This document shows, piece by piece, positions 13,048-59,512 of a stretch of 64,000 nucleotides of DNA. Where the stretch lies: NCBI RefSeq assembly GCF_058153355.1, contig NZ_CM177019.1. The stretch is one strand, 5' to 3'. Under the pieces are notes generated by a model. That model was given only the letters and a program-made list of their open reading frames with translations. It was not told where the DNA came from and searched no databases. A program made the translations under genes and the position numbers. Position 1 is the stretch's first letter, and every line of letters starts with the position of its first letter.

Positions 13048-13715
13048 TGCTTGAGTATTTACCCGAACTGATGAAAGGGCTGCACACCAGCCTGACGCTG
13101 ACGATTGCCTCGCTGATTGTGGCGCTGATTCTGGCGTTGATTTTTACCATCATCCTGACGCTGAAAACGCCGGTACTGGTGTGGCTGGTGCGGGGCTATA
13201 TCACGCTATTTACCGGTACGCCGCTGCTGGTGCAGATCTTTCTGATTTACTACGGGCCGGGCCAGTTCCCGACGTTACAGGAATATCCGGCACTGTGGCA
13301 TCTGTTATCAGAACCGTGGTTATGCGCGCTGATTGCATTGTCACTGAACAGTGCCGCGTATACCACGCAGCTGTTTTACGGTGCAATTCGTGCGATCCCG
13401 GAAGGCCAGTGGCAATCCTGTAGTGCCCTGGGGATGAGCAAAAAAGATACGCTGGCGATCCTGCTGCCGTATGCCTTTAAACGCTCACTCTCTTCTTATT
13501 CCAACGAAGTTGTGCTGGTGTTTAAAAGTACCTCTCTGGCTTACACCATTACGCTAATGGAAGTGATGGGTTACAGCCAGTTGTTGTACGGACGCACCTA
13601 CGATGTCATGGTGTTCGGTGCGGCGGGAATTATTTACCTGGTCGTCAACGGCCTGCTGACACTGATGATGCGTCTGATAGAGCGCAAAGCGCTGGCGTTC
13701 GAGCGACGGAATTGA
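13047..13715 (+). CDS. artM: arginine ABC transporter permease ArtM
   Basis: 222 aa; start overlaps artQ stop. Confidence 0.93.
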   Translation: MLEYLPELMKGLHTSLTLTIASLIVALILALIFTIILTLKTPVLVWLVRGYITLFTGTPLLVQIFLIYYGPGQFPTLQEYPALWHLLSEPWLCALIALSLNSAAYTTQLFYGAIRAIPEGQWQSCSALGMSKKDTLAILLPYAFKRSLSSYSNEVVLVFKSTSLAYTITLMEVMGYSQLLYGRTYDVMVFGAAGIIYLVVNGLLTLMMRLIERKALAFERRN

Positions 13716-13743: not shown

Positions 13744-13774
<31 letters not shown>

Positions 13775-13804
13775 TCTACCCCGGTTTCCCAGATTGCAGG
13801 CATG

Positions 13805-15112
<1,308 letters not shown>

Positions 15113-51313: not shown

Positions 51314-51325
51314 TTGCCAGCCCCA

Positions 51326-51406
51326 GGCCTGATAAGTCGCGACAAGCGTCGCATCAGGCATTTGCTCCAGACGCCAGATGCGGCGTGAACGCCTTATCTG
51401 GCCTAC
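51326..51406. repeat. REP/BIME palindromic units between moeB and fsaA
   Basis: AGGCCTGATAAGTCGCGACAAGCGTCGCATCAGGCA and GCCAGATGCGGCGTGAACGCCTTATCTGGCCTAC match REP consensus. Confidence 0.7.
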
Positions 51407-51491
51407 GGTTCGGGCGCAGATTTCCAGGCGCGGCAAGCGTTGGTGCCCTCCACCACGTTATCAGCAATTGATGAGGATGCAGAACGTCCTG

Positions 51492-58083: not shown

Positions 58084-58117
58084 TGCCGGATGCGGCGTGA
58101 CCGTCTTATCCGACCTA
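58084..58117. repeat. REP palindromic unit downstream of ybiU
   Basis: TGCCGGATGCGGCGTGACCGTCTTATCCGACCTAC matches REP consensus. Confidence 0.6.
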
Positions 58118-58213
58118 CAAAATCATGCAAATTCAATATATTGCGATACACTGGTAGATACTGTTATGGCCTGCAAGTTTTTTTCTACCCCGGTTTCCCA
58201 GATTGCAGGCATG

Positions 58214-59440
<1,227 letters not shown>

Positions 59441-59487: not shown

Positions 59488-59512
59488 GTAGCCCTGACCC
59501 TATCAGGGCTAC
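59488..59512 (-). terminator. hairpin downstream of ybiT (possible terminator)
   Basis: GTAGCCCTGA-loop-TCAGGGCTAC inverted repeat just 3' of the ybiT stop; weak T-tract. Confidence 0.35.

What the first reader, a model, noticed from the sequence alone, without database searches (positions are those of the whole stretch)
51326..51406. Intact REP/BIME units are candidate further targets for the resident IS
The moeB-fsaA BIME contains GCCTTATCTGGCCTAC, one mismatch from the TTATCAGGCCTAC target occupied at both IS sites. The REP at 58084-58117 (CTTATCCGACCTAC) is similar. With an apparently active bridge-RNA recombinase in the genome, such REPs are predicted insertion hotspots.
Basis: inference. 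Interest (0 to 1): 0.25.

Follow-up and report, generated by a model that had tools for sequence, protein, structure and literature searches.

The report
Variant REPs: weak IS621 targets
The flagged sequences are ordinary E. coli-type REP/BIME repeats that differ from the resident IS621's preferred target at the base read by a wobble-tolerant guide nucleotide. IS621 can hit them only rarely, and this follows already published IS621 biology.

Summary
Window 51323-51406 is a real two-REP BIME between moeB and fsa. It contains TTATCTGGCCTAC, and 58106-58118 contains TTATCCGACCTAC. Two 100% identical IS621-like copies each sit in a reconstructed TTATCAGGCCT|AC target.

The resident bridge RNA carries the published wild-type guides, which encode ATCGGGCCTAC. 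The natural target ATCAGGCCTAC works only because guide G53 forms a G:T wobble at target position 4. The flagged REPs have T or C at that position, giving G:A or G:G mismatches; one also has A at position 6.

- IS621 at the moeB-fsa BIME: 0 of 5,426 complete E. coli genomes, in either orientation. About 1,000-1,500 of those genomes carry this BIME.
- IS621 at the 58085-58118 REP: 0 genomes.
- IS621 at the window's two occupied sites: 13 and 1,056 genomes.
- Exact junctions with the wild-type guide: ATCAGGCCT about 1,193 genomes, ATCCGGCCT 55, ATCTGGCCT 11 (5 loci), ATCCGACCT 6.
- One ATCTGGCCT case (strain C11, ybaL-gsk) is an insertion into a REP identical to the flagged one, and the empty site in K-12 has the same base.

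These REPs are therefore usable but rare off-targets, not hotspots. REP targeting by IS621 and its position-4 tolerance are already published.

The parts
51323..51359 (-). Left REP of the moeB-fsa BIME. It is Z2-like and reads GCCTGATGCGACGCTTGTCGCGACTTATCAGGCCTGG on the minus strand. The left-target half and CT core match IS621's target perfectly (ATCAGGC-CT), but the right-target bases are GG instead of AC.
   Evidence: Sequence; 2-mismatch match; part of the Rfam naRNA4 hit. No E. coli genome has IS621 here in this orientation.
51373..51406 (+). Right REP of the moeB-fsa BIME. It is Y-like: GCCAGATGCGGCGTGAACGCCTTATCTGGCCTAC. Its tail ATCTGGCCTAC has T at target position 4, and the 5' arm carries the compensating A (GCCAGAT pairs with ATCTGGC), so the hairpin stem is kept.
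   Evidence: Sequence; 1-mismatch match. Conserved in 5 of 5 E. coli genomes that carry the BIME. No IS621 here in 5,426 genomes. An identical REP at ybaL-gsk is occupied in strain C11.
58085..58118 (+). Y-type REP with tail ATCCGACCTAC (C at position 4, A at position 6, so two mismatches to the guide). It is the partner REP of the BIME whose other REP already holds IS copy 2, 35 bp away.
   Evidence: Sequence; 2-mismatch match. No IS621 in this REP in 5,426 genomes. Exact ATCCGACCT junctions with the wild-type guide occur in 6 genomes at other loci.
15078..15111 (+). Y-type REP with tail ATCCGGCCTAC (C at position 4). It is the partner of the REP occupied by IS copy 1. The finding did not mention it, but it is the same class of near-cognate site.
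   Evidence: Sequence; 1-mismatch match; Rfam naRNA4 hit 15028-15108 at 79.2 bits.
13747..15028 (-). Resident IS621-like copy 1, with the CT core on both sides, inserted in a Z2-type REP tail ATCAGGCCT|AC next to artJ. The transposase ORF is 13854-14834. The bridge-RNA coding region is about 14835-15012, with the LTG-coding DNA at 14955-14963.
   Evidence: It is 97.6% identical to canonical IS621, with 4 of 326 amino-acid differences. Both guides are identical to the published bridge RNA. The site is occupied in 13 E. coli genomes.
58156..59437 (-). Resident IS621-like copy 2, 100% identical to copy 1, inserted in a Z1-type REP tail ATCAGGCCT|AC next to ybiT.
   Evidence: The site is occupied by IS621 in 1,056 of 5,426 E. 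coli genomes.

Best explanation
The flagged sequences are ordinary enterobacterial REP elements. One pair forms a BIME between the convergent genes moeB and fsa, and the other is the unoccupied partner of the BIME that holds IS copy 2.

The resident element is an IS621 variant whose bridge RNA has the published wild-type guides: LTG AUCGGGCCU, and RTG GUAG preceded by UGC. The LTG pairs with the bottom strand of target positions 1-9 and the RTG pairs with CTAC on the top strand.

The abundant Z-type REP tail ATCAGGCCTAC is a good target because guide G53 wobble-pairs with the bottom-strand T opposite A4. The flagged REP tails have T4 (giving G:A) or C4 plus A6 (giving G:G and a second mismatch). 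The left REP of the BIME has the wrong right-target bases (GG instead of AC).

These are therefore near-cognate, low-efficiency off-targets. Insertion can happen, but at a per-site rate roughly one to two orders of magnitude below cognate REPs.

Shown here: the sequences, guide identity, natural occupancy counts and one clean precedent. Taken from published work: the pairing geometry and the low mismatch tolerance. Inferred: the size of the rate difference, and that the variant inner hairpin of this bridge RNA does not change specificity.
For: - Guides are identical to the published 177-nt bridge RNA; the differences lie only in the inner hairpin between LTG and RTG.
- The LTG pairs with the bottom strand, and G53:T is a non-canonical pair.
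- The published assay found 173 sites; ATCAGGCCTAC plus ATCGGGCCTAC took 96.21% of insertions, and tolerance at position 4 was attributed to rG:dT.
- The window holds no unoccupied exact ATCRGGCCTAC; both exact sites are occupied.
- No genome of 5,426 has IS621 at either REP of the moeB-fsa BIME or at the 58085-58118 REP. The same query design finds 13 and 1,056 genomes for the window's occupied sites.
- Exact left junctions with the wild-type guide: A4 about 1,193 genomes, C4 55, T4 11, C4A6 6.
- Of 58 metagenomic junctions, 37 are A4, 4 are the exact G4 target ATCGGGCCT (7 more carry G4 plus another change), 0 T4, 2 C4 and 3 C4A6.
- Unoccupied C4 and C4A6 sites are about as common as A4 in 568 kb of held sequence. 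Unique sites counted: 12 A4, 13 C4, 9 C4A6, 2 T4.
- Published natural targets for the wild-type guide number 834 unique sequences; the T4 11-mer occurs only 7 times in the whole file, against 596 for A4.
- Precedent that T4 is usable: strain C11 has IS621 in GCCAGATGCGGCGTGAACGCCTTATCTGGCCT|AC at ybaL-gsk, and the empty K-12 site has the same T4 REP.
Against: - The moeB-fsa BIME is absent from most E. coli: K-12 lacks 103 bp that include the T4 REP. The real denominator is about 1,000-1,500 genomes, of which perhaps 40% carry IS621.
- Genome counts are not independent events, because strains are related.
- The abundance of each REP class was estimated from only 568 kb of partly redundant sequence, so the per-site rate ratio is rough.
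- The resident bridge RNA differs from wild type in the inner TBL hairpin (two substitutions and one inserted base), and the effect on specificity is untested.
- Only 64 kb of this genome is visible, so other copies sitting in variant REPs cannot be excluded.
Confidence: 0.85

Rival explanations
1. One reading: the variant REPs are insertion hotspots for the resident IS, comparable to the REPs already occupied.
For: They are REPs with an intact CT core and AC right-target bases, and are one or two bases from the occupied target. IS621 does tolerate a non-Watson-Crick pair at position 4. The two IS copies are 100% identical, consistent with recent activity.
Against: The tolerated position-4 variant is specifically the G:T wobble; T4 and C4 give G:A and G:G. 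No genome of 5,426 is occupied at these sites, against 13 and 1,056 at the cognate sites in the same window. Exact junction counts are 11 (T4) and 6 (C4A6) against about 1,193 (A4). Published work reports 96.2% of insertions at A4/G4 and 'low mismatch tolerance'.
Confidence: 0.03
2. The variant REPs are completely refractory. Apparent insertions in T4 or C4 REPs in other genomes are all A4 or G4 targets that mutated after insertion.
For: At codA-cynR the T4 junction (3 genomes) keeps a G in the 5' arm (GCCGGAT). The same locus appears with C4 in the published target list (seq834), so that T looks like a later C-to-T change.
Against: Four other T4 loci carry the compensating A in the REP 5' arm (GCCAGAT...ATCTGGC), which is a pre-existing REP subtype. 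The K-12 empty site at gsk-ybaL already has the T4 REP. C4 junctions with the wild-type guide occur in 55 genomes, and C4 is the standard Y-REP tail, not a derivative of A4.
Confidence: 0.04
3. The C4-type REPs (15101 ATCCGGCCTAC, 58108 ATCCGACCTAC) are the cognate targets of sister IS621-like elements whose guides are reprogrammed to C at position 4. They would be hot only if such an element is present elsewhere in this genome.
For: The published target sets include 245 natural targets for guide ATCCGGCCTAC and 35 for guide ATCCGACCTAC. One metagenomic element, L014, carries LTG ATCCGGCC. About 558 E. coli genomes have only more divergent IS621-like left ends (90-95% band).
Against: Both elements in the window carry the G4 guide. 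No guide group for ATCTGGCCTAC exists among published groups with at least 20 targets, so this does not cover the main flagged site. The rest of the genome is not visible.
Confidence: 0.08

Closest known systems
IS621 (IS110 family) bridge-RNA-guided recombinase and its REP targets (Choi et al. 2003, cited in PMC11208160; Durrant et al. 2024, PMC11208160; Hiraizumi et al. 2024, PMC11208158)
   Same: The resident element is 97.6% identical in DNA, differs at 4 of 326 amino acids, and has identical LTG and RTG guides and donor ends. Both copies sit in ATCAGGCCT|AC REP tails with a CT core, exactly as published.
   Different: The inner hairpin of the target-binding loop reads UUAGGUUUUCAACCU instead of UUGGGUUCUAACCU. 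A G:U pair becomes A-U, one loop base changes and one base is inserted, making the element 1,280 bp against 1,279. The right end carries a few substitutions.
E. coli REP / BIME elements (Y, Z1 and Z2 palindromic units; Rfam naRNA4 RF02564)
   Same: The flagged region is a two-REP BIME in an intergenic region between convergent genes. It scores above the Rfam gathering threshold and has the conserved CTAC tail.
   Different: The right REP is a less common subtype with an A:T pair in the stem (GCCAGAT/ATCTGGC) in place of the usual G:C (GCCGGAT/ATCCGGC). The left REP has a mutated tail (CTGG instead of CTAC). The BIME is present in only about a fifth to a quarter of E. coli genomes.
Off-target sites of programmable bridge recombinases (Durrant et al. 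2024, genome insertion assays)
   Same: These are sites with one or two mismatches and an intact CT core, used at low frequency.
   Different: Here the evidence comes from natural occupancy across genomes rather than a selection experiment. The mismatch falls at the one position where the natural system already relies on a wobble pair.

Membership tests
REP/BIME (enterobacterial palindromic units) | Imperfect palindrome of about 35 nt ending in the conserved (G)CCTAC tail, able to form a stable hairpin | tested here: met
   Sequences at 51323-51359(-), 51373-51406(+) and 58085-58118(+). Fold of -47.9 kcal/mol, z = -5.5.
REP/BIME (enterobacterial palindromic units) | Two REPs in inverted orientation forming a mosaic element, recognised by a curated model | tested here: met
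   Rfam naRNA4 RF02564 scores 73.7 bits against a gathering score of 59.5 at 51326-51403. The same family scores 79.2 bits at 15028-15108.
REP/BIME (enterobacterial palindromic units) | Extragenic location, typically at the 3' ends of genes | tested here: met
   The element lies between the moeB stop (51313) and the fsa stop (about 51492, minus strand). Annotation of homologous loci agrees.
IS621 / IS110-family bridge recombinase (the resident element) | DEDD RuvC-like N-terminal domain plus C-terminal Tnp (Transposase_20) domain | tested here: met
   Pfam PF01548 at 86.7 bits and PF02371 at 91.7 bits. The protein differs from the E. coli IS621 transposase at 4 of 326 residues.
IS621 / IS110-family bridge recombinase (the resident element) | Left-end non-coding region encoding the bridge RNA with target-binding (LTG/RTG) and donor-binding loops | tested here: met
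   Alignment to the published 177-nt bridge RNA shows identity except for three changes in the inner TBL hairpin. No Rfam family exists for it.
IS621 / IS110-family bridge recombinase (the resident element) | Insertion flanked by the CT core with no terminal inverted repeats, and a donor junction ACAGTATCT|TGTAT | tested here: met
   The ends read ...ACAGTATCT|AC and ...GGCCT|TGTATTATCC at both copies.
IS621 / IS110-family bridge recombinase (the resident element) | Current recombination activity | not testable with these tools
   Only indirect evidence is available: two copies identical over 1,280 bp and an intact ORF.
Cognate IS621 target site (ATC[A/G]GGC-CT-AC) | CT core at positions 8-9 | tested here: met
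   All four candidate sites keep CT.
Cognate IS621 target site (ATC[A/G]GGC-CT-AC) | Positions 1-7 complementary to the LTG, with only a G:T wobble allowed at position 4 | tested here: not met
   51396 has T4, 15101 has C4, and 58108 has C4 and A6. Only 51323(-) has a perfect left half.
Cognate IS621 target site (ATC[A/G]GGC-CT-AC) | Right-target bases AC complementary to the RTG | tested here: met
   Met at 51396, 58108 and 15101. Not met at 51323(-), which has GG.
Cognate IS621 target site (ATC[A/G]GGC-CT-AC) | Recurrent natural occupancy by IS621 in related genomes | tested here: not met
   No genome of 5,426 is occupied at the moeB-fsa BIME (both orientations) or at the 58085-58118 REP. 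The positive controls give 13 and 1,056 genomes.

The most novel reading that the evidence does not exclude
REP subfamilies and IS621-lineage guides may be co-diversifying. Z-type tails (A4) are exploited by the G4 guide through a wobble pair. Sister elements have reprogrammed guides for Y-type tails (ATCCGGCCTAC, ATCCGACCTAC). The T4 subtype, with its compensatory stem change GCCAGAT/ATCTGGC, would then be a REP variant that keeps its hairpin while largely escaping every common guide. On this reading, the intact T4 REP at moeB-fsa marks partial immunity to the IS rather than a future hotspot.
Probability: 0.1. Interest if true: 0.4.

Novelty: already known. Interest (0 to 1): 0.1.

Why it matters
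It matters little beyond bookkeeping. IS621's preference for REP tails has been known since 2003. Its RNA-guided basis, the position-4 wobble and its low mismatch tolerance were published in 2024.

This check adds a natural-population calibration. Across 5,426 complete E. coli genomes, near-cognate REPs with a true mismatch at position 4 are used, but far less often than cognate REPs, and the specific flagged sites are never used. That is a modest data point for anyone predicting off-targets of bridge recombinases from sequence similarity alone: the identity of the mismatch matters, not just the number of mismatches.

Tried and rejected
- I scanned GTDB species-representative genomes for the IS621 left-end 35-mer and found 0 hits, so no cross-species target logo came from that source.
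- I looked for a bridge-RNA family in Rfam and found none; only the BIME family naRNA4 matched.
- I first assumed that the BIME-plus-IS hits topping the chimeric search (F8704-2 and others, C4) were the same locus as the T4 hit in strain C11. Fetching them showed different loci, yjgA-mpl against ybaL-gsk, so that idea was dropped.
- I first treated '0 of 5,426' as the denominator for the moeB-fsa site. A later search showed that K-12-like genomes lack 103 bp including the T4 REP, so the denominator was corrected to about 1,000-1,500 genomes.
- I tried to read the list of 173 experimental insertion sites in Durrant et al. Supplementary Table 3. The stored copy is truncated and holds none of the target strings.
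- Choi et al. 2003 (PMC166490) is not held in the library.
- A full per-genome census of each REP tail class was not possible. Only 568 kb of held sequence could be counted.

Full report
**What is in the window**

The region 51323-51406 holds two REPs in inverted orientation, between the stop codon of moeB (51313, + strand) and that of fsa (about 51492, - strand).
- The left REP, read on the minus strand, is GCCTGATGCGACGCTTGTCGCGACTTATCAGGCCTGG.
- The right REP is GCCAGATGCGGCGTGAACGCCTTATCTGGCCTAC.
- Rfam's BIME-derived family naRNA4 matches 51326-51403 at 73.7 bits, above its gathering score of 59.5.
- The pair folds at -47.9 kcal/mol, z = -5.5.

The second sequence named in the finding, CTTATCCGACCTAC, is at 58105-58118 within a Y-type REP (58085-58118). 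Matches to TTATCAGGCCTAC with up to two mismatches are ten-fold over chance (10 against 0.94).

**The resident IS**

Two copies lie on the minus strand, at 13747-15028 and 58156-59437. They are identical over 1,294 bp including short flanks.

- The 326-aa ORF has the DEDD_Tnp_IS110 and Transposase_20 domains.
- It differs at 4 residues from the E. coli IS621 transposase, and the element is 97.6% identical to canonical IS621.
- Against the published 177-nt bridge RNA (Durrant et al. 2024, Supplementary Table 2), the only differences lie in the small hairpin between the two target guides.
- The left target guide (AUCGGGCCU) and the right target guide (GUAG, preceded by UGC) are unchanged.

**What the guide actually specifies**

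The published work is explicit. The target-binding loop encodes ATCGGGCCTAC. The naturally observed target ATCAGGCCTAC is accepted because position 4 forms a non-canonical rG:dT pair. In a genome-wide assay, 129 ATCAGGCCTAC sites plus 2 ATCGGGCCTAC sites took 96.21% of all insertions, and mismatch tolerance was otherwise low (PMC11208160).

The structure paper shows the LTG (A50-U58) pairing with the bottom strand, and G53 pairing non-canonically with the T opposite A4 (PMC11208158).

It follows that:
- T at position 4 (51396-51406) puts an A opposite G53.
- C at position 4 (15101-15111 and 58108-58118) puts a G opposite G53.
- 58108 also has A at position 6.
- The left REP of the moeB-fsa BIME has a perfect left half and core, but GG instead of AC in the right-target bases.

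'One mismatch from the occupied target' is numerically true. It hides the fact that the occupied target is itself the wobble variant of the encoded one.

The window contains no unoccupied exact ATCRGGCCTAC. Its two exact sites are the two occupied ones. At two mismatches, the 11-mer is at chance frequency, 28 found against 23 expected.

IS621-family sequence occurs in 2,244 of 5,426 complete E. coli genomes, at 13,149 places. I built chimeric queries of 300 nt of flank plus 300 nt of the IS left end, for an insertion at each candidate.

| Site tested | Genomes with the junction |
|---|---|
| T4 REP of the moeB-fsa BIME | 0 |
| Left REP of that BIME (opposite orientation) | 0 |
| 58085-58118 REP | 0 |
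| Control: window's artJ-side copy | 13 |
| Control: window's ybiT-side copy | 1,056 |

A correction is needed on the denominator. The moeB-fsa BIME is itself polymorphic.
- K-12 lacks 103 bp that include the T4 REP.
- From the ranked spread of hits, roughly 1,000-1,500 genomes carry the full BIME.
- In the five E. coli genomes with the BIME that I read, the T4 tail is conserved.

**Are such variants ever used?**

I searched 85-nt junctions made of 12 nt of target and 73 nt of the left end. The left-end part runs through the G4 guide, so an exact match proves a wild-type guide.

| Target at the junction | Genomes with an exact match |
|---|---|
| ATCAGGCCT | about 1,193 |
| ATCCGGCCT | 55 |
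| ATCTGGCCT | 11 |
| ATCCGACCT | 6 |

An independent sample of 58 left junctions from metagenome contigs gave 37 A4, 4 exact ATCGGGCCT (7 more carry G4 plus another change), 0 T4, 2 C4 and 3 C4A6, the last three from one locus.

Durrant et al.'s list of natural targets has 834 unique sequences for the wild-type guide. The T4 11-mer occurs 7 times in the whole file, against 596 for A4.

Unoccupied C4 and C4A6 tails are about as frequent as A4 in the 568 kb of Escherichia sequence I held, and T4 is several-fold rarer. The deficit is therefore not due to a lack of sites. My rough estimate is a per-site usage one to two orders of magnitude below cognate REPs. This figure is inferred, not measured.

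**The eleven T4 junctions**

They fall at five loci.
- At codA-cynR (3 genomes) the 5' arm still has G. The same locus appears with C4 in the published list, so the T is probably a later C-to-T change.
- The other four loci have the compensating A in the 5' arm, which marks a pre-existing REP subtype. They are gntP-fimH (5 genomes), yfaE-inaA, tRNA-Leu-rsmC and ybaL-gsk.
- The ybaL-gsk case in strain C11 is decisive for 'possible'. The occupied REP is identical over all 34 nt to the flagged REP, and the empty site in K-12 already reads ATCTGGCCTAC.

**Verdict**

The flagged REPs are ordinary REP/BIME elements and near-cognate, rarely used off-targets of a known REP-targeting bridge recombinase. 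They are not hotspots.

The C4-type tails are the cognate targets of sister IS621-like elements with reprogrammed guides. The published sets hold 245 natural targets for guide ATCCGGCCTAC and 35 for ATCCGACCTAC. Neither copy in this window has such a guide.

All of this sits within published knowledge, so the finding scores low on interest and is classed as already known.

Noticed in passing
window 14940-14965 and 59349-59374 (minus strand), inside both IS copies: The resident bridge RNA differs from the published IS621 bridge RNA only in the inner hairpin of the target-binding loop (UUAGGUUUUCAACCU against UUGGGUUCUAACCU). A G:U closing pair becomes A-U, one loop base changes and one base is inserted. 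Both guides are untouched.
   Followed up: partly
window 58156-59437 (ybiT side) and 13747-15028 (artJ side): The ybiT-adjacent REP is occupied by IS621 in 1,056 of 5,426 complete E. coli genomes, so it is either an old insertion or a strongly preferred site. The artJ-adjacent site is occupied in only 13. In this divergent Escherichia lineage the two copies are 100% identical to each other.
   Followed up: partly
L043 (metagenome contig OKVO01000332.1) about 1560-1660: This is a 63-bp solo remnant of the IS621 left end, at a Y-REP locus that carries a full IS621 in other contigs (L022, L030). The remnant stops exactly where the LTG-coding DNA would begin. It is followed by a repeat of the target's own ATCCGACCT and then the native right flank. 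It looks like a deletion that used the guide-coding DNA as a pseudo-target, but two bases do not fit a simple core exchange.
   Followed up: partly
window 14953-14963 and 59362-59372 (minus strand): The DNA that encodes the left target guide (ATCGGGCCT followed by TA) is itself a perfect left-target-plus-core site with mismatched right-target bases. It is therefore a built-in pseudo-target inside every copy. That copies stay intact suggests right-target mismatches block insertion well, which also argues against the ATCAGGCCTGG REP at 51323-51333.
   Followed up: no
L068 (E. coli VTB97585v, NZ_CP178711.1 4343679-4346963): This IS621 has the gntP left flank shared with four other strains, but an msrA-side right flank instead of fimH. 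That implies a rearrangement (inversion or deletion) between two IS621 copies or REPs.
   Followed up: no
L014 (metagenome contig OQDE01001778.1): This IS621-like element has the guide ATCCGGCC (C at position 4) and an altered right-guide region (CGCGGUAG), yet sits in an ATCAGGCCT target. A reprogrammed guide is thus found at a non-cognate REP.
   Followed up: no
window 51342-51444 compared with K-12 (L075): The moeB-fsa BIME is a presence/absence polymorphism in E. coli. K-12-like genomes, the majority, keep only the first 19 nt of the left REP and lack 103 bp that include the whole right REP.
   Followed up: yes
window 59488-59512: A non-REP hairpin, CAGTAGCCCTGAC...CTATCAGGGCTACTG, lies next to ybiT. 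It contains ATCAGGGCTAC, which is one mismatch (position 7) from the IS621 target, and sits 65 bp from the left end of IS copy 2.
   Followed up: no
whole window: The window is 90-95% identical to most E. coli genomes and 98% identical to only a few (for example strain R32_14_1F from goat). It therefore comes from a divergent Escherichia lineage. The IS621 left-end 35-mer was absent from all GTDB species-representative genomes.
   Followed up: partly
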